DNA of 15,215 nucleotides. It comes from a virus (lineage: Duplodnaviria; Heunggongvirae; Uroviricota; Caudoviricetes). Numbering within the stretch: the stretch's first letter is position 1; each line of letters opens with the position of its first letter. Below, piece by piece: positions 1,170 through 15,164 of this stretch. The stretch is taken from positions 1 to 15,215 of the IMG/VR virus record IMGVR_UViG_2778261570_000007; one strand, 5' to 3'. The notes beneath the pieces are model-generated. The model was not told the DNA's origin. It saw nothing but the letters and a program-made list of their open reading frames with translations, and did not search any database. Made by a program: the position numbers and the translations under genes.

Positions 1170-1380
1170 TTTTCACGGGTCCTTTCCAGAACCTGAAATA
1201 CCGGGGGTCTGGGGACGCGCAAAAACGCGCTATTTATGAAAATTTTCAGGGAAAAAGCAGATCCGTTCTTCTTCTGGCTAACCTGTTGTTTAATAGAGTT
1301 TTCTTAAAAAAAAGAAAGGATCTGGCAGCGGTGATTTTTCGCTGAAAAAAGCGTTTTGAGATCCTTTCTTCTTTTTGTGA
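1170..1380. promoter_or_regulatory. cos: Lambda-type cohesive-end site (cosQ, cosN, cosB with R3, IHF site, R2, R1)
   Basis: cacgggtcctttcc (1174-1187) matches the lambda right-end sequence ACGGGTCCTTTCC. The cosN-like element gggtctggggac lies at about 1205-1216. It is followed by cgctatttatgaaaattttc (1228-1247), nearly identical to lambda positions about 25-45. ccgttcttcttc (1263-1274) is R3-like. aaagaaaggatct (about 1310-1322) and agatcctttcttc (about 1360-1372) are inverted R2/R1-like repeats. The Nu1 start follows at 1393, as in lambda. Confidence 0.75.
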
Positions 1381-1392
1381 GGAATATGTGCC

Positions 1393-1941
1393 GTGAAGGT
1401 TAACAAAAAGAAACTGGCGGAAATTTTTGAGTGCGATGTCAGAACAATCACTGGCTGGCAAAGTCAGGGGCTGAGAGTTTTGTCGGGGGGAGGCAAAGGT
1501 ATCGAAGCCATGTTCAATACTGCAGAAGCCATTGAGTGGTATGCGCAGCGGGAAAAAGATATCGAAAACGAAAAGCTCCGCAAAGAACTGGAAGATTTGC
1601 GTGCGACTGCAGAATCAGATTTACAACCCGGCACCATTGACTATGAACGCTACCGGTTAACCAAAGCACAGGCTGACGCACAGGAGCTGAAAAATGCCCG
1701 TGAAGAAGGGCTGGTGCTGGAAACGGAATTGTTTACCTTCATTCTGCAACGTGTGGCACAGGAGATTTCGGGGATACTTGTACGTGTGCCGCTGACATTA
1801 CAGCGTAAATATCCGGATATTTCACCGTCACACCTTGATGTGGTGAAAACTGAAATCGCGAAAGCCTCCAATGTTGCAGCTAAAGCCGGTGAAAACGTGG
1901 GCAGGTGGATTGATGATTTCAGACGCACAGAAGGCAGCTAA
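1393..1941 (+). CDS. nu1: Terminase small subunit (lambda Nu1 family)
   Basis: GTG start with gagga SD upstream. The N-terminus [70 protein letters not shown] closely parallels lambda Nu1 (MEVNKKQLADIF...GGGKG...ENEKLRREVEELR). It sits immediately downstream of cosB. Confidence 0.9.
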
Positions 1942-3829
1942 TGCAGCCGGTGCGATAGCTACAGGGCTTTTATCTCTCAATATTCCGGTTCCACTGACGA
2001 CAGTTCAGTGGGCTGATAAACATTATTATCTGCCGAAAGAATCTTCATATACCCCCGGACAATGGGAAACCCTGCCGTTTCAGGTTGCCATTATGAACAG
2101 CATGGGAAATGACCGGATCCGCACCGTTAATCTGATTAAATCGGCGCGCGTTGGTTACACCAAAATGCTGTTGGGGGTGGAGGCTTATTTTATTGAGCAT
2201 AAATCCCGTAACAGTCTGCTTTTTCAGCCAACAGATTCTGCTGCAGAAGATTTCATGAAATCTCATGTTGAGCCCACGATAAGGGATGTCCCTGCATTGC
2301 TGGAGCTGGCTCCATGGTTCGGAAGAAAGCACCGCGATAATACACTCACCCTGAAGCGTTTTTCCTCCGGTGTGGGTTTCTGGTGCCTTGGCGGCGCCGC
2401 TGCTAAAAACTACCGTGAAAAATCTGTGGATGTGGTCTGCTATGACGAACTCTCCTCGTTTGAACCGGATGTGGAAAAAGAAGGTTCGCCGACGCTGCTT
2501 GGCGATAAGCGTATCGAAGGCTCGGTATGGCCTAAATCCATACGTGGCTCAACGCCAAAAATTAAAGGCACCTGCCAGATTGAGAAAGCCGCAAATGAAT
2601 CAGCGCATTTCATGCGGTTTTATGTCCCTTGCCCTCATTGCGGGGAGGCCCAGTATCTGAAGTTTGGCGATGATGCGACGCCATTTGGCCTGAAATGGGA
2701 GAAGGGTAAACCGGAAACGGTGTATTACCTGTGTGAACATAATGGCTGTGTGATCCGGCAGTCGGAACTTGACCAGACCGACGGGCGCTGGATTTGTGAC
2801 AATACCGGGATGTGGACGCGCGACGGCCTGGCATTTTACAGCGCCGGCGATGAGGAGATGCCACCGCCGCGCTCCGTCACTTTCCACATCTGGACGGCGT
2901 ACAGTCCGTTCACCACCTGGGTACAGATTGTTTATGACTGGCTGGATGCGCTGAAGGATCCGAACGGTGTTAAGACGTTTATTAACACCACGCTCGGGGA
3001 GCCCTATGAAGAGGCCGTGGCAGAAAAACTGAGCTTTGAGTTGTTGCTGGAAAAAGTCTGCCACTATGGCGCGCAGGTTCCCCTGCGGGTGGTTTACCTG
3101 ACCGCAGGGATCGACTCCCAGAAAGATCGCTATGAAATTTATGTCTGGGGCTGGGCTCCCGGCGAAGAAGCCTTTCTGATTGATAAGCAAATTATCATGG
3201 GGCGACCGGAAGACGAGGACACCCTTAAACGTGTTGATACGGTGATCCGGAAAAAATATCGTCATGCTGACGGTACTGAAATTTCCATTTCCCGTGTCTG
3301 CTGGGATACCGGTGGTATCGACCAGGACATTGTGTATCAGCGTTCCAGGAAACACGGCACTTTTTTTGTGCTTCCCATAAAAGGGGCATCGGTGTACGGC
3401 AAGCCGGTGATCACCATGCCCAAAAAGCGCAACCAGCGTGGTGTGTTTTTGTGTGAGGTGGGCTCCGATACCGTCAAGGAAATGCTGTACGCCCGTTTTG
3501 CCCTGCCGGTGGTCTCTGCCAGTGAAGCCGCCCCGTATACCTTCCGTTTTCCGGATAACCCCGACATTTTTTCGGAAGAAGAGGCGCGTCAGATCGTGGC
3601 GGAAGAGCTGGTGGAGAAGGTGGTTAATGGCAGGGTGAAACTGCTGTGGGATAAAAAAGGGCGACGCAACGAAGCCCTCGACTGCCTGGTATATGCCTAT
3701 GCTGCCCTGCGTATTTCAGTTCAGCGGTGGCAGCTGGATCTTGAAGCACTGGCCCGTGCCAGAAGAGATGAGCAGGACGACGATGAGATGAGTCTGGAAG
3801 AAATCGCGGCTGCACTGAGTGGAGGATAA
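1913..3829 (+). CDS. A: Terminase large subunit (lambda gpA family; ATPase and endonuclease)
   Basis: Long colinear similarity to lambda gpA, for example [25 protein letters not shown], a P-loop-like [54 protein letters not shown] and [20 protein letters not shown] prefer the ATG at 1913 (aggtgg SD at 1903-1908; about 29-nt overlap with Nu1, similar to lambda) over the tracked 1871 start. Confidence 0.92.
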
Positions 3830-3832
3830 AGA

Positions 3833-4042
3833 ATGGTTTATACGCATGAAATGCTTTGTGATGCCCGACGGGCATTACATGAACTGATGATCGGACGTGC
3901 TGTGGTTTCCGTCAGCAAGGACGGGCGTCAGGTTCAGTATTCGCGGGCGACGATTGGTGAACTGCGTCAGTATATTGAAGAGCTGGAAAGTGCGCTGGGT
4001 GTATCCGGACGGCGTCGCGGCCCGGCAGGAGTGGGGCTGTGA
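3833..4042 (+). CDS. W: Head completion / DNA stabilisation protein (lambda gpW family)
   Basis: 69 aa with a ggagga SD. ARRALHELMIGRAVVSVSKDGRQVQYSRATIGELRQYIEELE...RRRGPAG parallels lambda W (AARAALHDLMTGKRV..QKDGRRV...YIAELE...RRRGPAG). Confidence 0.85.
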   Translation: MVYTHEMLCDARRALHELMIGRAVVSVSKDGRQVQYSRATIGELRQYIEELESALGVSGRRRGPAGVGL

Positions 4043-5610
4043 ACAGGGAACTGGTGGATCTTCACGGGCAGCCACTGCGGCAGAGTATGGGGTATTCCGG
4101 AGGGGGTACCGGATTTGGCGGGCAGCTTGCGGAATGGTTGCCTGCACCGGAAAGTGCCGACGTGGCGCTCTTACCTTCCATTCAGCTGGGTAACGCCCGT
4201 GCGGATGATCTGGTCCGTAACAACGGTATTGCCGCAAATGCAGTGGAAATTCATAAAGACCATATCGTCGGGCACATGTTTCGTCTGAGCTACCGGCCCA
4301 ACTGGCGCTGGCTGGGGATGTCGGAAGCTGATTCGCATGCCTTTATTGAAGATGTGGAGGCGGCGTGGATGGAATATTGCGATCCGGTGTTTGGTTCGAT
4401 GGATGTGGAAGGGCGTCGCTCGTTTACCGAATTTATTCGTGAAGGGGTGGGGGTCCATACGTTTAACGGTGAAATTTTTGTCCAGCCCGTATGGGATACG
4501 GAATCCACGTCATTATTCAGAACAAAATTCAAGACCATCAGTCCGAAGCGCGTCAGCACGCCCGGTTATGGTACCGGCGATCGTTTTATGCGTGCCGGAG
4601 TGGAAATCAACCGTTACGGAAAGGCGATGGCTTATCATGTTCAGGACGATGACTGGCCTGGTTACGGTGTCAGCAACTGGACACGGATTGCGGCGACGCT
4701 GCCCTCCGGGCGACCGGGAATGATCCATGTGTTTCAGCCGCAGGAGGACGGACAGACGCGCGGGGCCAACCAGTTTTATTCCGTGATGGAGCGCCTCAAG
4801 ATGCTCGACACACTGCAGGCCACGCAACTGCAGTCGGCGGTGGTGCGGGCGATGTATGCCGCGACGATTGAATCCACTCTGGATTCAGAAAAAGCATTTG
4901 AATATATCGCCGGGGTGGGAGATGGCGGTAAAAATCCCCTGAACACCATCATGAAAGGCTACGCGCGTTATTACGCCACCAATACGGTAAAGCTGGGCGG
5001 GGTCCGTATTCCGCATCTTTATCCGGGGGATTCACTGAATCTGCAGACAGCGCAGAATGCAGATAATGGTTTCTCTGAACTGGAAAAGGCGCTGTTACGT
5101 TACATTGCTGCCGGGCTGGGGGTGTCCTATGAACAGCTTTCCCGTGATTATTCACAGGTCAGTTATTCCAGTGCCAGGGCATCCGCCAATGAGTCGTGGC
5201 GGTATTTTATGGGCAAACGAAAATTTGTGGCCAGCCGACTGGCATCACAGATGTTTGCCTGCTGGCTGGAGGAAGCTCTTATTCGCGGTGTGATCCGCCC
5301 GCCGAAATCCCGTTTTTCATTCTGGGAGGCCCGTTCCGGATGGTGTCGTGCCGAGTGGATTGGTGCCGGTCGCATGGCGATTGATGGCCTTAAGGAAGTG
5401 CAGGAGGCGGTGATGCGTATTGAAGGTGGCCTGAGCACGTACGAGAAAGAGCTGGCCCTGATGGGCGATGACTATCAGGAGATTTTCCGCCAGCAACTGC
5501 GTGAAAGCCAGGAGCGACAGGCAGCGGGTCTTCCCCGCCCCATCTGGATAAAGGACACGTTTCAGCAGCAGATCCGACAGACAACGGGAGAAAATGGCGA
5601 TGCGTCGTAA
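4039..5610 (+). CDS. B: Portal protein (lambda gpB family)
   Basis: GTG start overlapping the W stop by 4 nt, as in lambda. Extensive similarity to lambda gpB, for example GNARADDLVRNNG, FNGEIFVQPVWDT, GQTRGANQFYSVMERLKMLDTLQATQLQSA, LRYIAAGLGVSYEQLSR and MAIDGLKEVQEAVMRIEGGLSTYEKE. Confidence 0.92.
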   Translation: MNRELVDLHGQPLRQSMGYSGGGTGFGGQLAEWLPAPESADVALLPSIQLGNARADDLVRNNGIAANAVEIHKDHIVGHMFRLSYRPNWRWLGMSEADSHAFIEDVEAAWMEYCDPVFGSMDVEGRRSFTEFIREGVGVHTFNGEIFVQPVWDTESTSLFRTKFKTISPKRVSTPGYGTGDRFMRAGVEINRYGKAMAYHVQDDDWPGYGVSNWTRIAATLPSGRPGMIHVFQPQEDGQTRGANQFYSVMERLKMLDTLQATQLQSAVVRAMYAATIESTLDSEKAFEYIAGVGDGGKNPLNTIMKGYARYYATNTVKLGGVRIPHLYPGDSLNLQTAQNADNGFSELEKALLRYIAAGLGVSYEQLSRDYSQVSYSSARASANESWRYFMGKRKFVASRLASQMFACWLEEALIRGVIRPPKSRFSFWEARSGWCRAEWIGAGRMAIDGLKEVQEAVMRIEGGLSTYEKELALMGDDYQEIFRQQLRESQERQAAGLPRPIWIKDTFQQQIRQTTGENGDAS

Positions 5611-7216
5611 TTTATCGCATATTGCCGCCATGGCATTTAATGAGCCGCTTTTACTGGAACCCGCCTATGCGCGGGTTTTCTTTTGCGCGCTGGGTAAAGA
5701 GATGGGAGCCGGCAGCCTTGCCGTTCCTCAGCAGGCTGTTCAGCTTGATGCTGATGGTATGCAACTGGCTGTGACTGACTATATGGCGGGCGGTCAGCGT
5801 CCGGCAAAGAGTTACCAGGTGAAGAATGGCATCGCCATTCTTCCGGTGAGCGGCACGCTGGTGCATAAACTGGGTACCCTGCGGCCTTACTCCGGCATGA
5901 CTGGCTATGACGGCCTGACGGCCCGCCTTCAGATGGCGGTGAATGATCCGGATGTGCGCGGCATTTTGCTGGATATCGACAGCCCGGGCGGTCAGGCTGC
6001 CGGGGCGTTTGACTGTGCTGACATGATTTACCGTCTGCGGGAACAGAAGCCCGTGTGGGCGCTGTGTAATGACATGGCCTGTTCAGCCGCCATGTTGCTG
6101 GCGGCAGCCTGTACCCGTCGGCTGGTCACGCAGACGGCAAAAATTGGTTCGATTGGCGTGATGATGGCGCACACCAGTTACGAGAAACAACTGGCACAGG
6201 AAGGGGTGGACATCACGCTGATTTACTCCGGGCAGCATAAGGTTGACGGCAACAGTATTCAGGCATTGCCGGCAGGTGTGCGTGCAGATTTTCAGCGCCG
6301 TATTGATGAGGCCCGCCGGATGTTTGTCGACAAGGTGGCGCTTTATACGGGGCTGAGTTCAGAGGCGGTGATGAATACCGAGGCTGCCGTTTATGACGGT
6401 CAGGCAGGCATTGATGCAGGCCTGGCTGATCAACTGATTAATGCTGCAGATGCCGTTGAAGTGATGGTTTCTGCACTGAATGACTCTGTTACGAAGGAGA
6501 ATACAATGACTGTTAAAAATCTCACCGTTGCTGAAGCGGTGGCCCAGGAAAATCAGCGCGTGATGGGGATCCTGAATTGTCAGGAGGCGAAAGGGCGCGA
6601 GCAACTGGCGCAAATGCTGGCAGGTCAGCCAGGAATGACGGTTGAGCAGGCGAAAACGTTGCTTGCAGCTGCGCCGGTTGCCGGTACTGACAGCACGGGC
6701 GATCAGATTATGGGGCTGCCGGAAGCAAAGGGGCGTGAGCAACTGGCACAGATGCTGGCAGGTCAGCCGGGGATGACGGTGGAGCAGGCGAAAGCGTTTC
6801 TGGCGGCAGCCCCTGCTGCTGGTGCTGCAGGCACAGGCGATCAGATTATGGCGTTACCGGAAGCAAAAGGGCGTGAACAACTCGCGCAGGCGCTGGCTGA
6901 ACAGCCGGGAATGACCGTTGACCAGGCCAAAACGTTACTGGCGGCGGCACCGGTTGCGGGTTCTGCAAGTGTCGGCGATCAGATTATGGCGCTGCCGGAG
7001 GCAAAAGGGCGCGAGCAACTTGCACAGGCACTGACAGAACAACCGGGAATGACGGTGGCGCAGGCGAAAACGCTGCTGGCAGCCGCGCCGGCGGCATCGC
7101 AACCGTCACAGGAAACACTTTTTGATCGCTTTATGGCACAGCATGCTGCCAGTGCGGTTTCCGGTGGCGGAACTGCCGGGCGCGGGGAGGAAGACCTGCT
7201 GATGAGTATGCCGTAA
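5594..7216 (+). CDS. C: Capsid maturation protease (S49/ClpP-like, lambda gpC family) with an expanded C-terminal scaffold domain
   Basis: Overlaps B by 17 nt. The N-terminus HIAAMAFNEPLLLEPAYARVFFCAL matches lambda C (HIASMAFNEPLMLEPAYARVFFCAL). Protease-core motifs include PYSGMTGY, ILLDIDSPGG, VWALCNDMACSAA and RRLVTQTAKIGSIGVMMAH. At 540 aa it is about 100 aa longer than lambda C because of internal tandem repeats. Confidence 0.9.
   Translation: MAMRRNLSHIAAMAFNEPLLLEPAYARVFFCALGKEMGAGSLAVPQQAVQLDADGMQLAVTDYMAGGQRPAKSYQVKNGIAILPVSGTLVHKLGTLRPYSGMTGYDGLTARLQMAVNDPDVRGILLDIDSPGGQAAGAFDCADMIYRLREQKPVWALCNDMACSAAMLLAAACTRRLVTQTAKIGSIGVMMAHTSYEKQLAQEGVDITLIYSGQHKVDGNSIQALPAGVRADFQRRIDEARRMFVDKVALYTGLSSEAVMNTEAAVYDGQAGIDAGLADQLINAADAVEVMVSALNDSVTKENTMTVKNLTVAEAVAQENQRVMGILNCQEAKGREQLAQMLAGQPGMTVEQAKTLLAAAPVAGTDSTGDQIMGLPEAKGREQLAQMLAGQPGMTVEQAKAFLAAAPAAGAAGTGDQIMALPEAKGREQLAQALAEQPGMTVDQAKTLLAAAPVAGSASVGDQIMALPEAKGREQLAQALTEQPGMTVAQAKTLLAAAPAASQPSQETLFDRFMAQHAASAVSGGGTAGRGEEDLLMSMP
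6506..7216 (+). CDS. nu3: Putative Nu3-like scaffolding protein from an internal in-frame start within C
   Basis: A strong SD aaggaga (6494-6500) precedes an in-frame ATG at 6506 (MTVKNLTVAEAVAQENQRVMGILNC...). In lambda, Nu3 is nested in-frame in the 3' part of C. Internal initiation here is inferred, not demonstrated. Confidence 0.5.
   Translation: MTVKNLTVAEAVAQENQRVMGILNCQEAKGREQLAQMLAGQPGMTVEQAKTLLAAAPVAGTDSTGDQIMGLPEAKGREQLAQMLAGQPGMTVEQAKAFLAAAPAAGAAGTGDQIMALPEAKGREQLAQALAEQPGMTVDQAKTLLAAAPVAGSASVGDQIMALPEAKGREQLAQALTEQPGMTVAQAKTLLAAAPAASQPSQETLFDRFMAQHAASAVSGGGTAGRGEEDLLMSMP
6584..7135 (+). repeat. In-frame tandem repeat, four copies of 138 bp (46 aa), inside the C/Nu3 coding region
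   Basis: Unit starts at 6584, 6722, 6860 and 6998 (period exactly 138 nt). Each encodes about EAKGREQLAQMLAGQPGMTVEQAKTLLAAAPVAG-x6-GDQIMALP. Copies differ by point substitutions and the last copy diverges at its 3' end. Confidence 0.85.
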
Positions 7217-7590: not shown

Positions 7591-7612
7591 TGGTGAAGTG
7601 ATTAACTGAAAA

Positions 7613-8688: not shown

Positions 8689-8693
8689 GACAG

Positions 8694-8719
8694 GGCGGGA
8701 TATTCCCGCCTTTTTCTTT
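8694..8719 (+). terminator. Rho-independent terminator-like hairpin immediately after E
   Basis: ggcggga (8694-8700), loop tat, tcccgcc (8704-8710): a perfect 7-bp GC-rich stem followed by tttttcttt (8711-8719). Confidence 0.7.
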
Positions 8720-8738: not shown

Positions 8739-9104
8739 ATGACAAAAGAGCAGATGACTAAACGTTTGCAGGAACTGGCAGTGATTCTGGGGCGTGAAGC
8801 AGATATTTCAGGTTCAAAAGCCGATCTTGAGCAGCGTCTGGCGGAATGGGAGGAGGAGGCCGCTGGATTCGATGGGGAGGAGACGGGGAAGGAAGAGGTG
8901 GGCAACGATGCATCCGGCGACGGAATGCATTCTGAGCAGGGACTCGCCCGGGTGCGTATGCTGAAAACGGCGCATATGCCAGCCTGTGATGCTGTGACGG
9001 GAAAAATGTTGATGTTTGCCCGGGCCTCCAGTGTTGTGCTGGTTAATGAAGCCGCAGTTCCTGCGTTGCTGGCAGACGGTCTGGCAGAAAAAATCCGGGA
9101 GTGA
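8739..9104 (+). CDS. FI: DNA packaging / head assembly protein (lambda gpFI family)
   Basis: ATG at 8739 with a gggagag SD, in frame with tracked ORF 8607..9104. The N-terminus MTKEQMTKRLQELAVILGREADISGSKADLEQRLAEWEEE resembles lambda FI (MTKDELIARLRSLGEQL...GTKEEL..RVAELKEE). The middle is acidic and the C-terminal domain hydrophobic, as in FI. Confidence 0.75.
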   Translation: MTKEQMTKRLQELAVILGREADISGSKADLEQRLAEWEEEAAGFDGEETGKEEVGNDASGDGMHSEQGLARVRMLKTAHMPACDAVTGKMLMFARASSVVLVNEAAVPALLADGLAEKIRE

Positions 9105-9508
9105 TGATGTTCGATAATCTGTTCGATCAGGCCATGAGTGATGCGGATGACATCATCCTGGATACGATGGGGACGGAAATCAGCATATATCCGGGCGGCA
9201 CGGAAAGAAAAATCCGTGCCGTTTTTGATGCCCCGGCAGATAACACCGGGATGAACACTGGCAGCGGCGAAATTCGTGATACTGCGCCCGTGTTATTTAC
9301 CCGGAGCGCATGGGCCGCCGGTCTGAAAAAATATGACAGGGTCATGATCCACGGCGAACCCTATCAGGTAGTCGATCCCGGCTGGGATGAGTCAGGCGCT
9401 GCGGGTCAGGGGGTGATTACCATCACCCTTGCGCGTGGAGAGCCCGGGAGAAATACACCTGCTGCACCGGAACGACCGAGTAAACGTTATGGCAGTCAGA
9501 GAGCATGA
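9104..9508 (+). CDS. FII: Head-tail connector protein (lambda gpFII family)
   Basis: MMFDNLFDQAMSDADDIILDTMGTEISI...AVFDAP...PVLFTRS...GLKKYDRVMIHGE parallels lambda FII (MADFDNLFDAAIARADETIRGYMGTSATI...GVFDDP...PSLFVRTDE...LRRGDTLTIGEE). The start overlaps the FI stop. The exact start (GTG 9101, ATG 9104 or ATG 9107) is uncertain. Confidence 0.8.
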   Translation: MMFDNLFDQAMSDADDIILDTMGTEISIYPGGTERKIRAVFDAPADNTGMNTGSGEIRDTAPVLFTRSAWAAGLKKYDRVMIHGEPYQVVDPGWDESGAAGQGVITITLARGEPGRNTPAAPERPSKRYGSQRA

Positions 9509-10211
9509 ACGAAGCAGTGCCCGGCAGCGACGGCTGGCACGAAACCTCGTTGTCGATATTGATGAAGATGAGGTGCTGAAAATTATCGCTAAACTGGGTG
9601 GGTCAAAAAGTCAGATCCGTAAAGCCTGGGGCGTGGCGCTGAAAAGAGCCGCGTCTGCACTGCGGATGAAGGCTATGGCAGAGTTTAAAAAACAGGTTGC
9701 CCCACGCAGTCAGAAAATGATCAAAAAGCGTGTTCTGCATAATTTTATCATTCGTCGTAACGGTGATGAGTTTGATGAGGCGAAGGTATGGTTCGGTCTG
9801 AACGCCATCAAAGTACGCGATCTGCGCGGACGCATCAGTGGGGGACGACGCGGCGAACGCCATCAGTTGCGCGATGAGCGGGGGCGTTTTGCACCAGCTT
9901 CCAGCCGCAGGAAGGCTCGGGAGATCAGTTTTAAACCTGCCGGGGAATCCCTGCCTGTCACCGCCTGGTCAACGGATGATGCCTTTATCAACCAGTTCGA
10001 AGCGGAAAATCGTAACGGACGTATATCAAAAAGGAAAACGATACTGATCCGACAGGCATCCGGACGACGGAGGGTGCGTGAAGCGGAAATTGATATTTAT
10101 GAAGCCATGCTGAACCGTATAGAGGATTTTGTTTTTCCGGATGCGGAAGCACTGATCCTGAAAAATTTTGAGCATGAACTGAAATTCCGGGTATTTAAGG
10201 GGCTGGAGTGA
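9489..10211 (+). CDS. Putative tail-completion protein, possibly lambda gpZ-like (basic, about 240-260 aa)
   Basis: Sits where lambda has Z (after FII, before U). Highly basic composition with Z-like segments (KRAASALRMKAMAEFKKQV...; AKVWFGLNAIKVRDLRG versus lambda Z ARIKVNRGDLPVIKLGN). The similarity is weak and from memory. The start is uncertain (tracked ATG 9429 overlaps FII by 80 nt; the in-frame ATG at 9489 has a poor SD). Confidence 0.4.
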   Translation: MAVREHERSSARQRRLARNLVVDIDEDEVLKIIAKLGGSKSQIRKAWGVALKRAASALRMKAMAEFKKQVAPRSQKMIKKRVLHNFIIRRNGDEFDEAKVWFGLNAIKVRDLRGRISGGRRGERHQLRDERGRFAPASSRRKAREISFKPAGESLPVTAWSTDDAFINQFEAENRNGRISKRKTILIRQASGRRRVREAEIDIYEAMLNRIEDFVFPDAEALILKNFEHELKFRVFKGLE

Positions 10212-10774
10212 TGGAGCCATTGATGATGGGAGCCTGGCATCAGGCGGTGATTGACAGTCTGAAACAAATTCCCTGGGTGGAAGATGCCGATGAGTACCCG
10301 GAAAAAGTGACGCAACTGGTGACGCCTGCCGTGTTTGTGGATGTGCCCGGCTGGGACAAGGCTCAGTTTGCCGACGGGCAGACGCGGGTCACGCTGAAAT
10401 GCGATCTGTTTGTGGTGACTGACCGGGCCGGGAAGACGGAGAACGTGCCAAAACCGCAGATATTTGCCCGCTGTCTGGCAATGGATTTATCTGACTGGAT
10501 TGATGGAGCCACGTTCGGGCTGGATAACGTTTACCCGGCTGTTTTTATCGATGCTGAGGTGGATACCTTCGACCGGCTGCTGGACGACTACATCGTTTTC
10601 CGTGTCTCTTTCGAACAGGACATTCCGGTCGGCGAAGATCCGTTTGCAGTTCAGGCAGGTGCGCCGTTACAGGAAGTCTGGCTGGGTAAAGTACCGGAAA
10701 CCGGTAAAAAGCATGTGCAGGATTATCGTCTTATCTGGAAAGCGGAGGGCACCGGCGATGAGTCTGGCGGATGA
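10211..10774 (+). CDS. Putative tail terminator / tail-completion protein, possibly lambda gpU-like, with a C-terminal extension
   Basis: Lies after the Z-like gene, where lambda has U. AVIDSLKQ...PAVFVDVPG...TRVTLKCDLFVV loosely parallels lambda U (AAVLDALEK...PAVAVYLTG...ELHIEVFL). The start overlaps the upstream stop (GTG 10208 / ATG 10211). At 187 aa it is longer than lambda U (131 aa). Confidence 0.45.
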   Translation: MEPLMMGAWHQAVIDSLKQIPWVEDADEYPEKVTQLVTPAVFVDVPGWDKAQFADGQTRVTLKCDLFVVTDRAGKTENVPKPQIFARCLAMDLSDWIDGATFGLDNVYPAVFIDAEVDTFDRLLDDYIVFRVSFEQDIPVGEDPFAVQAGAPLQEVWLGKVPETGKKHVQDYRLIWKAEGTGDESGG

Positions 10775-11381
10775 AGTGGCTGAGTTACGCCGCAGGGTGG
10801 CGGACATGGTCCGTCGCGGCGTGGTGGAAGTGGTGATCCCGGGTAGCCCGGTGATGGTCCGGGTGGATATCGGAGATGTGCTTTCGCCGCCGTTGCCCTG
10901 GATTCAGGTGCAGTCCGGGCGTTACATGCAGGTCAGTAATTACCCGGCACCAGGAGATGCGGTCACGGTGATATCGGAGGCAGGTGATCTGCGTAATGGT
11001 CGGGTGTATCCGGGGGCCAACATTGACGCGATTCCGGTACCGGCGGGCAGTGAACACGAGCATGTTATTTTGTTTGATACCGGAACGGAGATCCGTTACG
11101 ACCGCAAGGCTAATGCCCTGTCCATCACGCTGGCTGAAGGCGGCAGCTATAAAATCACCGGCAGGGGAATGCTTGACGGTCCGGTGGAAATCACGGATAC
11201 CCTGACTGTGCAGGGAAAAACGAAGATTAATGCCGATACGCAGGTTCTGGGCAATATCGGTGCCTCACAGGAGATCACCGACAAAACCGGTAGCATGAGT
11301 AAAATTCGCGAAATTTATAATACTCATGATCACCCTGGCGACAGCGGGGGAACCACCCGTAAACCTAACCAGGAAATGTGA
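10758..11381 (+). CDS. V: Baseplate assembly / spike protein (P2 gpV family)
   Basis: ATG at 10758 with a ggaggg SD, overlapping the upstream stop by 17 nt. The N-terminus MSLADEVAELRRRVADMVRRGVV parallels P2 V (NIQELARALRNMIRTGII). The C-terminal NTHDHPGDSGGTT matches the P2 V motif HTHKHPGDSGGTT. The tracked ORF 10464..11381 contains this frame. Confidence 0.85.
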   Translation: MSLADEVAELRRRVADMVRRGVVEVVIPGSPVMVRVDIGDVLSPPLPWIQVQSGRYMQVSNYPAPGDAVTVISEAGDLRNGRVYPGANIDAIPVPAGSEHEHVILFDTGTEIRYDRKANALSITLAEGGSYKITGRGMLDGPVEITDTLTVQGKTKINADTQVLGNIGASQEITDKTGSMSKIREIYNTHDHPGDSGGTTRKPNQEM

Positions 11382-11402: not shown

Positions 11403-11414
11403 CGGAAAAATTTC

Positions 11415-11771
11415 ATGATTGGTATTGATTCCGCCACTGGCAGATATCTGCACGGTAACGAACATCTGCGTCAGTCCGTCACCGATATTTTATCAACACC
11501 GGTCGGCAGCCGGGTACTTCTCAGGGAATACGGCAGCAGGTTGTTCAGTCTGCTTGATAACCCGCAGGATGATTTTACGCGGGTGAGGATTGTCCGTGAA
11601 ACGGCAACCGCCCTTGAACGCTGGGAGCCCCGCCTGACCCTCCGGCGGGTGGAGGTGACGTGGACAGGAGAAGGAAGCGCCTGGCTGACGCTTGTCGGGG
11701 TGAACAACGAAACACAGGAAACGATTCGACTCGAGGAGATAAAAATTGGCAGCATCTCAGGCCATTATTGA
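11415..11771 (+). CDS. W: Baseplate wedge protein (P2 gpW / T4 gp25-like family)
   Basis: 118 aa. SVTDILSTPVGSRVLLREYGSRLFSLLDNPQ...ALERWEPRLTL parallels P2 W (SIGDILRTPVGSRVMRRDYGSLLASMIDQPQ...KWEPRVTL). Confidence 0.85.
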   Translation: MIGIDSATGRYLHGNEHLRQSVTDILSTPVGSRVLLREYGSRLFSLLDNPQDDFTRVRIVRETATALERWEPRLTLRRVEVTWTGEGSAWLTLVGVNNETQETIRLEEIKIGSISGHY

Positions 11772-12660
11772 TCTGTCCGCGATACCTGTACCGGATGCGG
11801 TGGAGGTGCCGGACACCGCTGTACTGGTCACTCAGATAGTGGCGAAATATCAGGAACTGGACACGTTGTTTTCGGCCCTGGTGGAATCTGATCCCGCGTA
11901 TAAATGGGCAGAGGCGCTGGCTTTTCGGGTGGCGCTGATGCGCCAGCAGATAAATGATGCTGTCCGTGCTGTACTGCTTGCCAGTGCCGGTGGGAGCGAT
12001 CTGGATCAGGTTGGCGCGAATTATCAGGTTCAGCGGCTGGTCATTACCCCGGCAGACGACAGCACCATTCCGCCCACGCCGGCGGTGTATGAACATGATG
12101 ACGCTTTTCGCGAACGTATCCAGTTGTCGTGGGCACGGCTCAGCACCGCCGGCGCGAAAAATGCGTATCACTATTTTGCACAAAGTGCTGATCCTGATGT
12201 GCTGGATGTGAAGGCTTACGGGCCGGAAACGCATTCGCAGGAAGGTCGGGTTTTTCTTTATGTGTTATCCCGCTCCGGAAATGGCACTGCACCACAACCC
12301 CTGCTGGATAAGGTGGCAGCATCAGTCAGTGATGATGAAACCCGTCCCCTGACGGATTTTGTCAGTGTCCGGACGGCAGAAATTATTCCCTACGATGTGG
12401 TGGCGGATATTCATATTCCCTACGGACTGGATGGTGAACTGGTTATGTCAAATGCCCGCAAGGCGCTGCAGTCATACACTGACAGCGTCCACCGGATTGG
12501 CTCGGTGGCATCCCGTTCCGGCATGGATGGTGCCCTTCACCAGACCGGGGTGATTACGGTGAATCTGACCTCTCCGGGCAGTGATATCGTTCCTGCGATG
12601 GGGCAGGCACCGTGGTGCCGTAAGGTAACGCTGAATAAGGTGGAGACAACTGATGAATGA
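11746..12660 (+). CDS. J: Baseplate assembly protein (P2 gpJ family)
   Basis: TTG start at 11746 preceded by a gaggag SD (11733-11738). IIDLSAIPVPDAV, LDQVGANYQVQRLVITPADDSTIPPTPAV and a C-terminal ...TTDE parallel P2 J (IIDLNQLPAPDVV, LDVIGANYNTTRLTITPADDSTIPPTPAV, ...GGSDE). Confidence 0.88.
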   Translation: MAASQAIIDLSAIPVPDAVEVPDTAVLVTQIVAKYQELDTLFSALVESDPAYKWAEALAFRVALMRQQINDAVRAVLLASAGGSDLDQVGANYQVQRLVITPADDSTIPPTPAVYEHDDAFRERIQLSWARLSTAGAKNAYHYFAQSADPDVLDVKAYGPETHSQEGRVFLYVLSRSGNGTAPQPLLDKVAASVSDDETRPLTDFVSVRTAEIIPYDVVADIHIPYGLDGELVMSNARKALQSYTDSVHRIGSVASRSGMDGALHQTGVITVNLTSPGSDIVPAMGQAPWCRKVTLNKVETTDE

Positions 12661-13243
12661 CGATATCAGGAGCATACTGCCGGTCAGTGCCAGCCGGGCA
12701 GAGCGGGTGGTGGACTGTGTCTCCGGAGATATGCTGTCAGACATAGCGGTCTGCCTGATCCGCTATGTGAAAAATCCCGATTTATGCCCTGCTGAATTGC
12801 TGCCATGGCTGGCCTGGGAAATGGCGGTGGATACCTGGAATGAACACTGGACGGAGACGGAAAAAAGGTCTGCGATAAAACGTGCTGCTTACATCCACCG
12901 ACACAGAGGGACTAAAGCGGCGCTGATGGCATCGCTGGCTGACAGTCCCTTCCGGTCGCAGATTGTTGAGTGGTATGAGCAGACCCCGCCCGGGGAGCCG
13001 TATACCTTTCGTCTGAACGTGGAACAGAAGGATTTACCGGTGCTGATGAATGATCATCAGGATCTTAAGCATGCGGTGCTCCGTGCCAAAAATCTGCGCA
13101 GCTGGTTCAGTATTCACGTTTACGGGAACAGCACAGGGCGTGGATTTGGTTACGGCTATGTGATGGCGACAGAAAAAATCAGAAGTACTGGTGTGACAAC
13201 AAAGACAGTGCCCACAGGCGGGCAGAGTGAGGCAGGTGTATGA
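12653..13243 (+). CDS. I: Baseplate / tail protein (P2 gpI family)
   Basis: NPDLCPAELLPWLAWEMAVDTWNEHWTETEKRSAIKRAAYIHRHRGTKAAL...EWYEQTPPGEPYTFRL parallels P2 I (NPDTCPANLLPWLAWAFSVDRWDEKWPEATKRAVIRDAYFIHCHKGTIGAV...EWWENSDPPGTFRL). Overlaps J by 8 nt. Confidence 0.85.
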   Translation: MNDDIRSILPVSASRAERVVDCVSGDMLSDIAVCLIRYVKNPDLCPAELLPWLAWEMAVDTWNEHWTETEKRSAIKRAAYIHRHRGTKAALMASLADSPFRSQIVEWYEQTPPGEPYTFRLNVEQKDLPVLMNDHQDLKHAVLRAKNLRSWFSIHVYGNSTGRGFGYGYVMATEKIRSTGVTTKTVPTGGQSEAGV

Positions 13244-14499
13244 ATGGACTGATTCTGACAACGTCCGGCGCTGCAGAAATTGAAGCAGCATATCAGAACG
13301 GGCAAACCGTGACCGTCCGGCATGTTCTGCTTGGTGACGGGGGCGGGCGGGCATTGCCATCCACGCCGGATGAAATGGCAGCAATGACATCGTTGTACGG
13401 CGAATTCGGGCAGGAACCCTTTTCCGACGGTGCGATGGAGGAGGGCTTCATCAGCGGGGATATTGTGATTGACTGTAAATCATACCCCGGTAAAACCCTT
13501 CGTGAACTGGGGATGATCAGCGACAGAGGTACGCTTATCGCGTACGGACGTTATCCCGACACCTTTTTACCAGACCAGACGGACTCCGTTATCAAGGAAG
13601 TTATTCTGACGCTGGTTCTTGGGCTGACGCACGCACAAAACGTGGTGCTGGAAGTTGATCCGGACAGGGCCATTATTACTCAGGAAATCGGAGACAGACG
13701 CTATCTGCAACGAAAAAAGAATCTTTCGGATGTGGAAGACAAGGATGAGGCTGTTGAAAACCTCGGATTAAAACCCACGGTGGACAAGGCAAAAAATGCC
13801 GTTCAGCGTGATGGTGACACCATGACCGGGGAGCTGAAAATCCGTGGTGTTAATGCGCTGAGGATTTTCAACGAAGCCTTTGGCCTGATTTTTCGTCGTT
13901 CGGAAGAGTGCCTGCACCTTATTCCAACACAGGAAAACCAGGGTGAAAATGGCGATATTGGTCCACTTCGCCCGTTCACTATTAATCTGCGGACGGGTGA
14001 AATATCCATGTCGCATAAAGTGTCTGTTGGTGGCGGTTCTCAGGTGAATGGTGCGCTGGGTATCGGCGTTCAGAATGCCCTGGGCGGAAACTCAATTGCT
14101 TTCGGGGATAACGATACCGGCCTGAAACAGAATGGTGATGGCCTGCTGGATGTTTATGCCAATGGTCAGCACGTATTCCGTTTTCAGAATGGCGCGTTAC
14201 AAAGTAACCGGGCGGTGAACGTTACTGGGCGGGTAACACCGTCAGACTACGGAAACTTTGATGCCCGTTACCAGACCAAAACAGGCGGCGTGCAGGATGT
14301 GCGTTATGGTTCCGAAATGTATTACAACCCGGGAGGTAACGAGATAACCTGGACGTTTCGCTCACCTTCAGGCCACGGATTATCCGGTATTTATGTGCAG
14401 GATACCGGAAGAAGTTCGGCAGATAACATTGGTGGTGTGTATTACAGACCGCTTCAGAAACTGATTAACGGCACCTGGTATAACGTGGCGAGTGTTTAA
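13240..14499 (+). CDS. H: Tail fibre protein (P2 gpH family), short form
   Basis: The N-terminus (TTSGAAEIEAA...VTVRHVLLGDGGG) and the C-terminal region (KAKNAVQRDGDTMTGEL; NALGGNSIAFGDNDTGLKQNGDGLLDVYANGQHVFRFQNG; GNFDARY; YRPLQKLINGTWYNVASV) parallel P2 H (NAVQKNGDTLSGGL; NALGGSSIVLGDNDTGFKQNGDGILDVYANSQRVFRFQNG; FRPIQKYINGTWYNVAQV). At 419 aa it is much shorter than P2 H as I recall it. Confidence 0.85.
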   Translation: MNGLILTTSGAAEIEAAYQNGQTVTVRHVLLGDGGGRALPSTPDEMAAMTSLYGEFGQEPFSDGAMEEGFISGDIVIDCKSYPGKTLRELGMISDRGTLIAYGRYPDTFLPDQTDSVIKEVILTLVLGLTHAQNVVLEVDPDRAIITQEIGDRRYLQRKKNLSDVEDKDEAVENLGLKPTVDKAKNAVQRDGDTMTGELKIRGVNALRIFNEAFGLIFRRSEECLHLIPTQENQGENGDIGPLRPFTINLRTGEISMSHKVSVGGGSQVNGALGIGVQNALGGNSIAFGDNDTGLKQNGDGLLDVYANGQHVFRFQNGALQSNRAVNVTGRVTPSDYGNFDARYQTKTGGVQDVRYGSEMYYNPGGNEITWTFRSPSGHGLSGIYVQDTGRSSADNIGGVYYRPLQKLINGTWYNVASV

Positions 14500-14501
14500 C
14501 A

Positions 14502-15044
14502 ATGTTGCATTTAAAAAATATTACTGCAGGCAATCCGAAAACCGCAGAACAATATCAGATGACAAAACAACATGGTATCACCTGGCTTTTTTCGGAAGAT
14601 GACAAAAACTGGTATGAAGAACAGAAGAACTTTGCCAGTGACACCATAAAAATGGTTTACACCGGAGACGGGCGCGTGGTGTGGGTCGGTAAGGATGTGA
14701 CAGGCATTGAACCCCGTAACGCCAGTGTTATTGAAGTTCCTGATATTACCGCTAATCGCCGTATTACCGTGCCTGGTTACTGGTTTTACCGCAACGATAA
14801 ATTTGTCTTCGACTACAAACTAAAAGCGGAAGATGAGCGCGATGCTCTGTTAAAACAGGTCAGCATCATGACCAGCGAATGGGAAAAAGACCTGCTGCTG
14901 GGATTAATCAGTGACGAAGACAGGGGGAAGCTGAAAGCGTACCGCATTTACGCGAAATCGCTGCAGGCGATGGATTTCAGCGCTATTACGGATAAGCCCA
15001 CTTACAACAATATTAGCTGGCCTGAACAGCCACAAAATACCTGA
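14502..15044 (+). CDS. G: Tail fibre assembly chaperone (P2 gpG / Tfa family)
   Basis: MLHLKNITAGNPKTAEQYQMTK...WLFSEDDKNWYEEQKNFASDTIKMVY...VIEVPDITANRR parallels P2 G ([22 protein letters not shown]...[26 protein letters not shown]...VVEVPDITSNRR). Starts 3 nt after the H stop. Confidence 0.88.
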   Translation: MLHLKNITAGNPKTAEQYQMTKQHGITWLFSEDDKNWYEEQKNFASDTIKMVYTGDGRVVWVGKDVTGIEPRNASVIEVPDITANRRITVPGYWFYRNDKFVFDYKLKAEDERDALLKQVSIMTSEWEKDLLLGLISDEDRGKLKAYRIYAKSLQAMDFSAITDKPTYNNISWPEQPQNT

Positions 15045-15063
15045 AAAAGAAGTTAATCATCTG

Positions 15064-15086
15064 ACCGCCTGAGGGCGGTTTTTTTA
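15064..15086 (+). terminator. Rho-independent terminator after the tail fibre assembly gene
   Basis: accgcc (15064-15069), loop tgag, ggcggt (15074-15079), followed by a 7-T run (15079-15085), about 20 nt after the G stop. Confidence 0.7.
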
Positions 15087-15098
15087 TGGGAGAAATGT

Positions 15099-15164
15099 AT
15101 GTCCGGATTACATGGTGTTGAAACCATTGAACTGACGACAGGCACGGTTGCCGTGCAGACGTAA
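15099..15164 (+). pseudogene. Tail sheath-like N-terminal fragment (21 codons then TAA)
   Basis: ATG at 15099 with a gggag SD (15088-15092). MSGLHGVETIELTTGTVAVQT* resembles the N-terminus of the P2 FI sheath (MSDYHHGVQVLEINEGTRVISTV...) but ends at TAA 15162-15164. The remaining 51 nt in any frame do not look like sheath sequence. Confidence 0.35.

What the first reader, a model, noticed from the sequence alone, without database searches (positions are those of the whole stretch)
1170..15164. Mosaic virion module: lambda-like packaging and head genes fused to a P2-like contractile-tail baseplate and fibre cassette
Genes from cos through Nu1, A, W, B, C/Nu3, D, E, FI, FII and Z-like/U-like follow lambda order and show lambda-like motifs. 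The next genes (V, W, J, I, H, G and a sheath-like start) follow P2 order and show P2-like motifs. Lambda is a siphovirus and P2 a myovirus, so this implies a recombinant morphogenesis pathway in which a lambda-type head and connector must dock onto a contractile tail.
Basis: partly seen in the sequence, partly recalled or inferred. Interest (0 to 1): 0.6.

Follow-up and report, generated by a model that had tools for sequence, protein, structure and literature searches.

The report
Lambda-type head, P2-type tail prophage
This is the virion-gene block of an E. coli prophage that builds a lambda/phage-21-type head and joins it to a P2/R-pyocin-type contractile tail. That combination is real, but it was already described in other phages, and this copy has an insertion sequence in its sheath gene.

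Summary
Window 1175-15160 is one tightly packed, same-strand late operon. It runs: a lambda-like cos region, Nu1, A, W, B, C/Nu3, D, E, FI, FII, a gpZ-family protein, a tail terminator, then P2-order V, W, J, I, H, G and the first 62 nt of a sheath gene.

This is not an unusual one-off lambda x P2 recombinant.
- The neck and spike cassette (FII, gpZ-like, PA0615-type terminator, V) sits next to a gpA terminase and a lambda-family portal in isolated temperate myoviruses (Hafnia yong2, Citrobacter Chris1).
- The same cassette occurs in prophages of 18 Enterobacterales species.
- It also occurs in Wolbachia phage WO, which the literature has called a lambda/P2 chimera since 2001.
- A Serratia prophage has the identical architecture, with head and tail diverged to a similar degree.

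Docking needs no new mechanism. An FII head-closure ring binds a gpU-fold terminator hexamer, as in all Type-1 necks.

What is specific here: the head-shell genes are about 77% nt identical to phage 21, and that similarity stops exactly at the E stop codon. The fibre tip is 93% identical to phiP27. An IS66-family element cuts the sheath gene at 15161, so this copy is probably tail-defective. It is a new member of a known kind, of low interest.

The parts
1175..1390 (+). cos region. It contains a cosQ-containing 13-mer ACGGGTCCTTTCC (1175-1187), a divergent cosN (about 1206-1217), the exact lambda 20-mer CGCTATTTATGAAAATTTTC (1228-1247), and R3-, R2- and R1-like boxes.
   Evidence: Global alignment to the lambda right end plus left end gives 68% identity. 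Sequences were read.
1393..1941 (+). Terminase small subunit (Nu1 / phage 21 gp1 type)
   Evidence: PF07471, 1e-84. 87% aa identity to phage 21 and 52% to lambda.
1913..3829 (+). Terminase large subunit (gpA)
   Evidence: GpA_ATPase plus GpA_nuclease. 83% aa identity to phage 21.
3833..4042 (+). gpW head-tail adaptor
   Evidence: PF02831, 4e-25. phrog_75 Ad1. 47-50% aa identity to phage 21 and lambda W.
4087..5610 (+). Portal protein (gpB). An alternative GTG start at 4039 overlaps the W stop codon.
   Evidence: Phage_portal_2, 2e-95. 74% aa identity to phage 21. Both start sites are called in relatives.
5600..7216 (+). Prohead protease/scaffold (gpC, with a Nu3-like C-terminal part)
   Evidence: Peptidase_S49. 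phrog_53 and scaffold PHROGs. 61% aa identity to phage 21.
7255..7590 (+). Head decoration protein (gpD)
   Evidence: PF02924. 77% aa identity to phage 21.
7660..8688 (+). Major capsid protein (gpE)
   Evidence: PF03864, 8e-66. 82% aa identity to phage 21. Nucleotide similarity to phage 21 ends at 8688.
8692..8712 (+). GC-rich hairpin plus T-run directly after the E stop codon, at the point where similarity to phage 21 ends
   Evidence: Terminator-like scan. The function is inferred, not shown.
8739..9104 (+). DNA-packaging chaperone FI
   Evidence: PF14000. phrog_92. 42% aa identity to phage 21 FI.
9107..9508 (+). gpFII head-closure protein (Hc1), the head-side docking ring
   Evidence: PF05354. 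phrog_82. Hits lambda gpFII 1k0h at 1.4e-7. 33% aa identity to lambda and 32-34% to Chris1/yong2.
9489..10211 (+). gpZ-family Neck1/tail-completion protein (240 aa)
   Evidence: phrog_27, 7.5e-29 over the full profile. Lambda gpZ is in the same PHROG. No Pfam hit. 42% aa identity to yong2 and Chris1. The structural test was inconclusive.
10223..10774 (+). Tail terminator (Tc1), homologous to the R2-pyocin collar PA0615. It is the tail-side docking ring and sheath cap.
   Evidence: An 80-sequence profile hits 6u5f at 7e-31 over the full length. The AF2 model has pLDDT 91.7. Foldseek top hits are the pyocin collar, the Mu terminator, T5 p142 and lambda gpU.
10758..11381 (+). Baseplate spike (gpV)
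   Evidence: Hits P2 gpV 3qr8 at 1.5e-12 and PA0616 4s37. phrog_9992. 26% aa identity to P2 V.
11415..11771 (+). Baseplate wedge / sheath initiator (P2 gpW / T4 gp25 family)
   Evidence: PF04965. 39% aa identity to P2 W.
11746..12660 (+). Baseplate wedge protein gpJ
   Evidence: PF04865. Hits PA0618 6u5b at 4.5e-58. 40% aa identity to P2 J.
12653..13243 (+). Baseplate wedge / fibre-attachment protein gpI
   Evidence: Tail_P2_I, 5e-35. 36% aa identity to P2 I.
13240..14499 (+). Tail fibre (gpH-like). The N-terminal tail-collar domain is followed by an exchanged distal part.
   Evidence: PF12571. The C-terminal part is 31% identical to P2 H. 13713-14981 is 93% nt identical to phiP27.
14502..15044 (+). 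Tail-fibre assembly chaperone (gpG-like)
   Evidence: Caudo_TAP, 9e-24. 40% aa identity to P2 G.
15063..15080 (+). Terminator-like hairpin between G and the sheath gene, at the same position as the P2 V-operon terminator
   Evidence: P2 annotation.
15099..15160 (+). First 62 nt of the tail sheath gene (FI-like), truncated
   Evidence: Identical to the sheath gene start of intact prophage E41 up to 15160.
15161..15215 (.). Terminal inverted repeat and end of an IS66-family (ISCro1-like) element inserted in the sheath gene
   Evidence: The sequence GTAAGCGGCTCGTC... is identical to an ISCro1 end in NZ_CP148275.

Best explanation
The window is the late (virion) operon of a lambdoid temperate myovirus prophage of E. 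coli. Its lineage natively combines lambda-family packaging and connector proteins with a P2/R-pyocin-type contractile tail.

The lambda-family set is a cos site, Nu1/gpA terminase, gpW, the gpB portal and gpFII.

Proposed assembly (inferred from homology, not shown here):
1. Heads form on the lambda pathway. The portal, the C protease/Nu3 scaffold and the E shell make the prohead. Terminase, helped by FI, packages DNA from cos. D decorates the shell. W and then FII close the portal.
2. Tails form independently on the P2 pathway. The V spike and the D/U/X hub combine with W-J-I wedges carrying H fibres folded by G. Tube and sheath then polymerise around the tape measure.
3. The 183-aa PA0615-type terminator hexamer caps the tube and sheath. 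The gpZ-family protein makes the tail competent for joining.
4. Heads and tails join spontaneously through the FII-terminator contact. This is the Hc1-Tc1 interface used in lambda (FII-gpU) and in other Type-1 necks.

Within this lineage the head-shell genes and the order of the tail genes are exchangeable cassettes. The E. coli version carries a phage-21-like Nu1-to-E block and a phiP27-like fibre tip.

In this genome an IS66-family insertion interrupts the sheath gene, so this copy probably cannot make tails.
For: Gene families and order.

One coherent prophage. Intact relative E41 has lambdoid early genes, a Q-position DUF1133/antitermQ protein, a lysis cassette, this module, then sheath, tube, E, TMP, U, X and D, and it ends at a tRNA-Ser. 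Genes overlap across the supposed joint: FII/p240 by 20 nt and p183/V by 17 nt.

Neck assignment:
- p240 is in phrog_27 together with lambda gpZ.
- The p183 profile hits PA0615 at 7e-31.
- The p183 fold matches the terminators of pyocin R2, Mu, T5 and lambda gpU.
- P2 gpR and PA0615 are homologous terminators (preprint 10.64898/2026.09.14.750843).
- The Ad-Hc1-Ne1-Tc1 neck is shared by siphoviruses and myoviruses, including one gpW-bearing myovirus (PMC4362835).

Lineage:
- yong2 and Chris1 have a gpA terminase, a lambda-family portal, FII, p240, p183 and V.
- 18 Enterobacterales loci keep the cassette, with two head types and two tail orders in all four combinations.
- Serratia locus L017 has the identical architecture, with the head at 47-68% and the neck and tail at 40-57% aa identity.
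- WOcauB1 has the same PHROG cassette upstream of P2-like W and J.

Frequency: the neck-baseplate DNA occurs in 78 of 5,426 complete E. coli genomes.

IS insertion.
Against: - No virion of this E. coli prophage has been seen. No record in the phage collection covers more than 41% of the window.
- The gpZ-family assignment rests on a PHROG profile and on gene position only. A profile-versus-lambda-Z comparison was negative, and the AF2 model was too poor for fold matching.
- The FII-terminator contact is inferred from other phages.
- The cosN core differs from that of lambda and phage 21, so the actual cleavage site is unverified.
- The remainder of the sheath gene and the other tail genes lie outside the window, so their presence in this genome is unknown.
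Confidence: 0.88

Rival explanations
1. This is a recent, one-off recombinant. A lambda/21-like siphovirus exchanged its whole tail region for that of a P2-like (Peduoviridae) phage, creating a new head-tail pairing.
For: The Nu1-to-E block is about 77% nt (74-87% aa) identical to phage 21, and the similarity ends sharply at the E stop codon. V to G follow P2 order at 26-40% aa identity.
Against: - The neck and tail are much closer (40-62% aa) to lambdoid myoviruses that already carry a gpA terminase, a lambda-family portal and FII.
- No P2 head, replication or regulatory genes are present.
- The identical architecture exists in Serratia with evenly diverged head and tail. The same neck cassette exists in Wolbachia WO.
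- A narrower version stays plausible and fits the best explanation: a 21-like head-shell cassette was swapped into an existing lambdoid myovirus.
Confidence: 0.07
2. These are two adjacent, unrelated elements: a lambdoid prophage remnant (head genes) lying next to a P2-like prophage remnant or an R-type tailocin cluster.
For: R-type tailocin clusters start with a PA0615-type collar gene followed by V, W, J, I, H and G. That is the order seen from 10223 onward (pyocin gene order from established knowledge and PMC2647930).
Against: - Genes are contiguous and overlap across the boundary.
- FII, p240 and p183 are co-inherited in all related loci.
- Intact relatives have one integrase-proximal end, one lysis cassette and one cos, with no second set of regulators between head and tail.
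- More than 70 complete genomes carry the whole block colinearly.
Confidence: 0.03
3. The block is only a decaying, non-functional prophage relic in every host, so no hybrid morphogenesis pathway operates.
For: This copy has an IS66-family insertion in the sheath gene. Some relatives have truncated terminase genes (L028, L031 and L032).
Against: - Many copies have all genes intact at 95-98% nt identity.
- The exact V protein is seen in 134 blocks of the assembly collection.
- Related phages yong2 and Chris1 are deposited as phage genomes.
Confidence: 0.02

Closest known systems
Wolbachia phage WO (WOcauB1, WOVitA1, WORiC)
   Same: - Lambda-like terminase A, portal B and protease C, followed by an FII-like gene, phrog_27 (gpZ family), phrog_1072 (PA0615-type terminator) and phrog_9992 (V).
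- Then P2-like W and J, fibre genes, sheath and tube.
- Described in the literature as a lambda/P2 chimera (PMC3235987).
   Different: - Only 25-46% aa identity.
- The host is an alphaproteobacterial endosymbiont.
- It carries an extra small gene between V and W, ankyrin/eukaryotic-association modules, and a different capsid gene family (phrog_29).
Hafnia phage yong2 and Citrobacter phage Chris1 (unclassified Caudoviricetes; lambdoid temperate myoviruses)
   Same: - Lambdoid early region.
- gpA terminase, a W-position gene annotated as head-to-tail joining protein W (no Pfam gpW hit), lambda-family portal, FII, p240 and p183 homologues, V, and P2-family sheath, tube, TMP, U, X, D, W, J and I.
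- They are the closest deposited phage genomes for the neck and tail (40-63% aa identity).
   Different: - The head shell is a ClpP-protease/capsid fusion instead of S49 protease C, D and E.
- The tail order is V-sheath...D-W-J-I-H-G instead of V-W-J-I-H-G-sheath...D.
- Terminase and portal are only 23-24% identical.
Escherichia phage 21 and phage lambda (lambdoid siphoviruses)
   Same: - Nu1, A, W, B, C/Nu3, D, E, FI and FII in the same order.
- 74-87% aa identity to phage 21 for Nu1, A, B, D and E.
- cos architecture.
   Different: - No V, G/T, H, M, L, K, I or J siphovirus tail genes.
- FII and W are only 33-50% identical.
- The terminator is of the pyocin/Mu type, not gpU by sequence.
- The cosN core differs.
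Phage P2 (Peduoviridae) and the R2 pyocin of Pseudomonas aeruginosa
   Same: - V-W-J-I-H-G then FI-FII-E-T-U-(X)-D order.
- 26-40% aa identity to P2.
- J matches PA0618 at 4.5e-58, V matches P2 gpV and PA0616, and the terminator matches PA0615.
- From the collar gene onward the order is colinear with the R2 cluster.
   Different: - None of the P2 head genes (portal Q, terminase P/M, scaffold O, capsid N, adaptor L) is present, and there is no P2 gpR or gpS by sequence.
- The pyocin has no head at all.
- Late control is probably by a lambdoid Q-type antiterminator rather than Ogr (inferred).
Pseudomonas fluorescens Pf-5 prophage 03, and Xylella XfP1/XfP2
   Same: Published examples of a siphovirus/lambda-type head region joined to a P2/R2-pyocin-like tail region (PMC2647930; PMC3235987).
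   Different: They were not compared by sequence here, and they come from different hosts.

Membership tests
Lambda-type head and packaging module | Nu1-type small terminase plus gpA large terminase (ATPase and nuclease domains) | tested here: met
   PF07471 at 1e-84. PF05876 and PF20454.
Lambda-type head and packaging module | gpW adaptor, lambda-family portal, S49 protease C, decoration protein D, capsid protein E, FI and FII, in lambda order | tested here: met
   All seven Pfam families score above their cut-offs. The order was read.
Lambda-type head and packaging module | cos site with cosQ, cosN and cosB upstream of Nu1 | tested here: inconclusive
   68% identity to lambda cos, with exact cosQ-containing and spacer blocks and R-box-like repeats. 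The 12-nt cosN core matches lambda at only about 6 of 12 positions. Cleavage was not tested.
Peduoviridae (P2-like phages) | Six shared orthologues: large and small terminase, portal gpQ, scaffold, capsid gpN and capsid-completion gpL (as stated in preprint 10.64898/2026.09.14.750843) | tested here: not met
   tblastn of all window proteins against P2 hits only V, W, J, I, H and G. The head genes here belong to lambda families.
P2/R-pyocin-type contractile tail module | gpV spike, gpW/gp25 wedge, gpJ, gpI, fibre and chaperone in that order | tested here: met
P2/R-pyocin-type contractile tail module | Sheath, tube, E/E' chaperone, tape measure, U, X and D | tested here: inconclusive
   Only 62 nt of the sheath gene lie in the window before the IS66 end. 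All of these genes are present in intact relatives E41 and L028-L033.
Type-1 neck (Virfam: Ad, Hc1, Ne1, Tc1) | Adaptor (gpW variant) and Hc1 (FII) | tested here: met
   phrog_75 and PF02831. phrog_82, PF05354 and 1k0h.
Type-1 neck (Virfam: Ad, Hc1, Ne1, Tc1) | Ne1 (gpZ / SPP1 gp16.1 superfamily) between Hc1 and Tc1 | tested here: met
   phrog_27 at 7.5e-29, and lambda gpZ is in the same PHROG at 3e-69. The position is right. However, hhalign against lambda Z alone and the fold search were uninformative.
Type-1 neck (Virfam: Ad, Hc1, Ne1, Tc1) | Tc1 tail terminator with the gpU fold | tested here: met
   The profile hits PA0615 at 7e-31. Foldseek hits the pyocin collar, the Mu terminator, T5 p142 and lambda gpU at probability 1.00.
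Lambdoid temperate phage (genome organisation) | Lambda-like order: immunity, replication, nin/RusA, Q, lysis, cos, head, tail | tested here: met
   Seen in intact relative E41, not in the window itself. The Q-position protein hits Phage_antitermQ at 26.3 bits against a cut-off of 26.
Lambda-head/P2-tail temperate myoviruses (WO, yong2/Chris1 type) | gpA terminase and lambda-family portal on the same operon as the FII, phrog_27, phrog_1072 and phrog_9992 cassette and a P2-type baseplate | tested here: met
Lambda-head/P2-tail temperate myoviruses (WO, yong2/Chris1 type) | Produces particles with an icosahedral head and a contractile tail | not testable with these tools
   This needs induction and electron microscopy. 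The copy in the window has a disrupted sheath gene.

The most novel reading that the evidence does not exclude
The E. coli lineage is a natural domain swap. A phage-21-type packaging and shell block (Nu1 to E, including a 21-like portal) works with a connector (W, FII) and terminator inherited from a myovirus lineage, and with a cosN core unlike that of lambda or 21. If intact copies are viable, they would define the minimal set of contacts that decide head-tail joining specificity between siphovirus-type heads and contractile tails: portal-W, W-FII and FII-terminator. They would also define a new cos cleavage specificity for a 21-like terminase.
Probability: 0.12. Interest if true: 0.35.

Novelty: new member of a known kind. 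Interest (0 to 1): 0.2.

Why it matters
The main value is in annotation.
- Two 'hypothetical proteins' found in these E. coli prophages, in yong2/Chris1-type phages and in Wolbachia WO can now be named. One is a gpZ-family neck protein. The other is a PA0615/gpU-fold tail terminator; its family, phrog_1072, is currently listed as unknown function and has no direct Pfam hit.
- The result shows that the lambda-head/P2-tail arrangement is an old, widespread and modular lineage rather than an oddity. Head-shell cassettes and tail gene order shuffle around a conserved neck.
- It also flags this particular copy as probably defective.

It does not open a new question.

Tried and rejected
- hhalign of the p240 family profile against the single lambda gpZ sequence was negative (probability 0.1).
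- The PDB sequence and profile searches for p240 gave only spurious hits.
- The AF2 model of p240 had pLDDT 65, and Foldseek found nothing. The gpZ assignment therefore rests on the PHROG hit and on gene position.
The p240 alignment was used instead.
- An exact-phrase literature search for 'lambda-like head' plus 'P2-like tail' found nothing, and 'Hafnia phage yong2' found no paper.
- Rfam gave no match.
- Sigma-70-like promoter hits were no more frequent than in shuffled sequence.
- None of 5,426 complete E. coli genomes contains the exact sheath/IS66 junction. The six contigs shown for the identical V protein all have an intact sheath gene. The source genome and what lies beyond the IS stay unknown.
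- I considered and rejected two alternatives: two adjacent elements, or a tailocin next to a head remnant. Genes overlap across the joint and the cassette is co-inherited.
- I considered whether the low identity of W (47-50%), between the highly similar A and B, reflects co-adaptation with FII. I could not separate that from the generally fast divergence of W.

Full report
**1. What is in the window**

From 1393 to 15044 there are 18 consecutive + strand genes, with gaps or overlaps between -29 and +69 nt. Curated profiles identify the first ten of them:
- Nu1 (PF07471, 1e-84).
- gpA terminase (ATPase and nuclease domains).
- gpW.
- A lambda-family portal (2e-95).
- An S49 protease (gpC).
- Decoration protein D.
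- Capsid protein E (8e-66).
- FI.
- FII (Phage_attach).

After two genes without Pfam hits come the baseplate and fibre genes:
- A V-like spike gene.
- gpW/gp25.
- Baseplate J.
- Tail_P2_I.
- A tail-collar fibre.
- A Caudo_TAP chaperone.

tblastn against reference genomes gave these aa identities:

| Window protein | vs phage 21 | vs lambda |
|---|---|---|
| Nu1 | 87% | 52% |
| A | 83% | 66% |
| W | 47% | 50% |
| B | 74% | 62% |
| C | 61% | 54% |
| D | 77% | 51% |
| E | 82% | 59% |
| FI | 42% | none |
| FII | none | 33% |

Against P2, only the tail-side genes hit, and in P2 order: V 26%, W 39%, J 40%, I 36%, H (C-terminal part) 31%, G 40%.

Solved structures agree. FII matches lambda gpFII (1k0h, 1.4e-7). 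V matches P2 gpV (3qr8, 1.5e-12) and the pyocin spike protein (4s37, taken to be PA0616). J matches PA0618 (4.5e-58).

Upstream of Nu1, positions 1175-1390 align 68% to lambda cos. The alignment includes the exact 13-mer ACGGGTCCTTTCC, which contains cosQ, the exact 20-mer CGCTATTTATGAAAATTTTC, and R3-, R2- and R1-like boxes.

**2. The two unnamed genes are the tail side of the neck**

The 240-aa product (9489-10211) matches phrog_27, 'tail completion or Neck1', at 7.5e-29 over the whole profile. Lambda gpZ falls in the same PHROG at 3e-69. A direct profile comparison with the lambda Z sequence was negative, and a moderate AF2 model (pLDDT 65) gave no fold match. This assignment therefore rests on the family profile and on gene position.

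The 183-aa product (10223-10774) belongs to phrog_1072, listed as unknown function. The evidence for its role is stronger:
- An exhaustive profile search found 359 representative clusters.
- An 80-sequence profile of the family hits the R2-pyocin collar PA0615 (6u5f) at 7e-31 over its full length.
- The AF2 model is confident (pLDDT 91.7).
- Foldseek returns the pyocin collar, the phage Mu terminator, cyanophage A-1(L) gp7, T5 p142 and lambda gpU, all at probability 1.00.

It is a tail terminator. A recent P2 cryo-EM preprint shows that the P2 neck consists of portal, adaptor gpL and terminator gpR. It also shows that gpR is homologous to PA0615 and to siphovirus terminators.

**3. How a lambda-type head docks onto this tail**

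The Virfam analysis (PMC4362835) defines the Type-1 neck as adaptor, Hc1, Ne1 and Tc1.
- It is shared by siphoviruses and many myoviruses.
- Lambda uses gpW, FII, gpZ and gpU in these roles.
- P2 gpS is an Ne1.
- One myovirus with a gpW-type adaptor was already known in 2014.

The window encodes exactly this set: gpW, FII, a gpZ-family protein and a gpU-fold terminator. The contact that joins head and tail is therefore FII against a terminator hexamer, the same kind of interface as in lambda. The terminator here is of the variety that also caps a sheath. Nothing beyond the known mechanism is required. The specific contacts are inferred, not shown.

**4. It is one prophage, and a common one**

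Seventy complete E. coli genomes carry at least 80% of the window at 95-98% identity. The neck-baseplate DNA occurs in 78 of 5,426 complete genomes.

In strain E41 the element has this layout:
- Lambdoid early genes.
- A RusA gene and a DUF1133 protein at the Q position. That protein also reaches the Phage_antitermQ threshold.
- Two tRNAs, holins and an endolysin.
- The module studied here.
- Sheath, tube, chaperone, tape measure, U, X and D, then a second fibre gene.
- The tRNA-Ser next to hya.

The downstream tail proteins are 22-46% identical to P2 and 40-63% identical to yong2 and Chris1. There is no second integrase, regulator or lysis set between head and tail, and genes overlap across the boundary. 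This rejects the 'two adjacent elements' reading.

**5. The arrangement is that of a known, old lineage**

The closest deposited phage genomes for the neck and tail are Hafnia phage yong2 and Citrobacter phage Chris1. Both are lambdoid in their early regions. Both encode a gpA terminase, a gene at the gpW position (annotated as protein W in yong2, though it has no Pfam gpW hit), a lambda-family portal, FII, homologues of the 240-aa and 183-aa proteins, V, and a P2-family tail.

A scan of one genome per species found the cassette in 18 Enterobacterales species. A panel tblastn of those loci showed:
- The FII, p240, p183 and V cassette is constant.
- The head shell is either a ClpP-capsid fusion (most loci) or lambda C/D/E (Erwinia L012 and Serratia L017).
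- The tail order is either V-sheath...D-W-J-I (most loci) or V-W-J-I-fibre-sheath (L017 and L024).
- All four combinations of head type and tail order occur.

Serratia proteamaculans L017 has the same architecture as the window. Its head proteins are 47-68% identical and its neck and tail proteins 40-57% identical. That argues for long co-inheritance of the combined module.

Wolbachia phage WO also encodes a homologue of the 183-aa protein directly upstream of its P2-V-like gene. In WOcauB1 the four genes before P2-like W fall in phrog_7787 (FII-related), phrog_27, phrog_1072 and phrog_9992. These are the same families as in the window, and they lie downstream of lambda-like A, B and C.

The literature already describes this kind of phage:
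- WO as a lambda/P2 chimera, with Xylella XfP1 and XfP2 as further examples (PMC3235987).
- Pseudomonas Pf-5 prophage 03 as a siphovirus head joined to an R2-pyocin-like tail (PMC2647930).
- SEN34 as a lambda-related phage with myovirus morphology (PMC5261728).

**6. What is particular to this copy**

- Nucleotide similarity to phage 21 (about 77%) runs from Nu1 to exactly the E stop codon at 8688. A GC-rich hairpin follows at 8692-8712. From FII onward the affinities switch to the myovirus lineage. The E. coli lineage therefore carries a 21-like head cassette within the conserved framework.
- The distal fibre and its chaperone (13713-14981) are 93% nt identical to phiP27.
- V is only 83% identical to E41, whereas the head proteins are 99-100% identical.
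- The sheath gene starts at 15099. At 15161 the sequence becomes the end of an IS66-family ISCro1 element (GTAAGCGG...), identical to a copy elsewhere in E. coli, whereas intact prophages continue with sheath sequence. This copy is probably unable to make tails.
- No complete genome in the collection has this junction.

**7. Verdict**

It is not a member of Peduoviridae, because the defining head orthologues are absent. It is a lambdoid temperate myovirus of the lambda-head/P2-tail kind. No deposited phage genome covers more than 41% of it, so it is a new member of a known kind.

The useful by-product is a functional name for phrog_1072, and for the WO gp8-type 'hypothetical' proteins, as tail terminators. 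Interest is low (0.2).

Noticed in passing
window 15161-15215: The end of an IS66-family (ISCro1-like) insertion sequence interrupts the sheath gene after its 62nd nucleotide. Intact relatives continue with sheath sequence. None of 5,426 complete E. coli genomes has this junction.
   Followed up: yes
window ~1203-1219 and 1255-1390: The cosN core (about GGTCTGGGGACG) matches the lambda/21 sequence GGGCGGCGACCT at only about 6 of 12 positions, although the flanking cosQ-containing and spacer blocks are identical to lambda. The cosB R-boxes resemble those of lambda more than those of phage 21, even though Nu1 is 87% identical to phage 21 gp1 and only 52% to lambda Nu1. This may be a distinct packaging specificity.
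   Followed up: partly
window 1109-1345: The 78-aa ORF that PGAP annotates as a hypothetical protein in relatives lies across the cos site and has no family hit. It is probably not a gene.
   Followed up: partly
window 13713-14981: The distal two-thirds of the fibre gene plus the chaperone gene are 93% nt identical to Stx2e phage phiP27. This places a mosaic joint inside the fibre gene. Relatives carry either a 419-aa or a 460-aa fibre.
   Followed up: partly
window 10223-13243: Against prophage E41 the head proteins are 99-100% identical, but V is 83% and p183, W, J and I are 95-97% identical. This is a recombination patch in the baseplate. The exact V sequence is nevertheless widespread, seen in 134 blocks of the assembly collection.
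   Followed up: partly
window 7612-7636, 8692-8712, 15063-15080: Three strong intergenic hairpins with T-runs lie on the coding strand: between D and E, right after E, and between G and the sheath gene. They may tune the relative expression of capsid and tail genes, or mark module joints. Overall, terminator-like hits are only slightly above the shuffled expectation.
   Followed up: no
window 54-281, 287-469, 644-940: Small ORFs between the lysis region and cos match PHROGs of unknown function (phrog_4906, phrog_7528, phrog_1935). No spanin genes (Rz/Rz1) are annotated in this region in the E41 relative.
   Followed up: partly
L028, L031, L032 (loci), positions 1-3072: In several strains the prophage has lost Nu1 and the 5' half of gpA. 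Only a 319-aa nuclease fragment remains. Unrelated genes lie upstream, including a second HDPD decoration-protein gene. In L032 an IS66 transposase sits just after gene D. Decay and IS activity recur in this prophage family.
   Followed up: no
L002 (yong2), L003 (Chris1) and most loci L009-L023: In most relatives V is separated from W-J-I by the whole sheath-to-D block. In the window, L017 and L024 the P2 order is kept. This is a clean module inversion or transposition within one lineage.
   Followed up: partly
L001 (E41) 38005-40739 and 1722-2193, 8750-8905: The intact prophage carries a second tail-fibre gene plus a DUF4376 gene after gene D. It also carries RelBE and HokD toxin-antitoxin genes, two tRNAs (Thr, Gly) upstream of the lysis genes, and an ISKpn26 insertion in the early region.
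   Followed up: no
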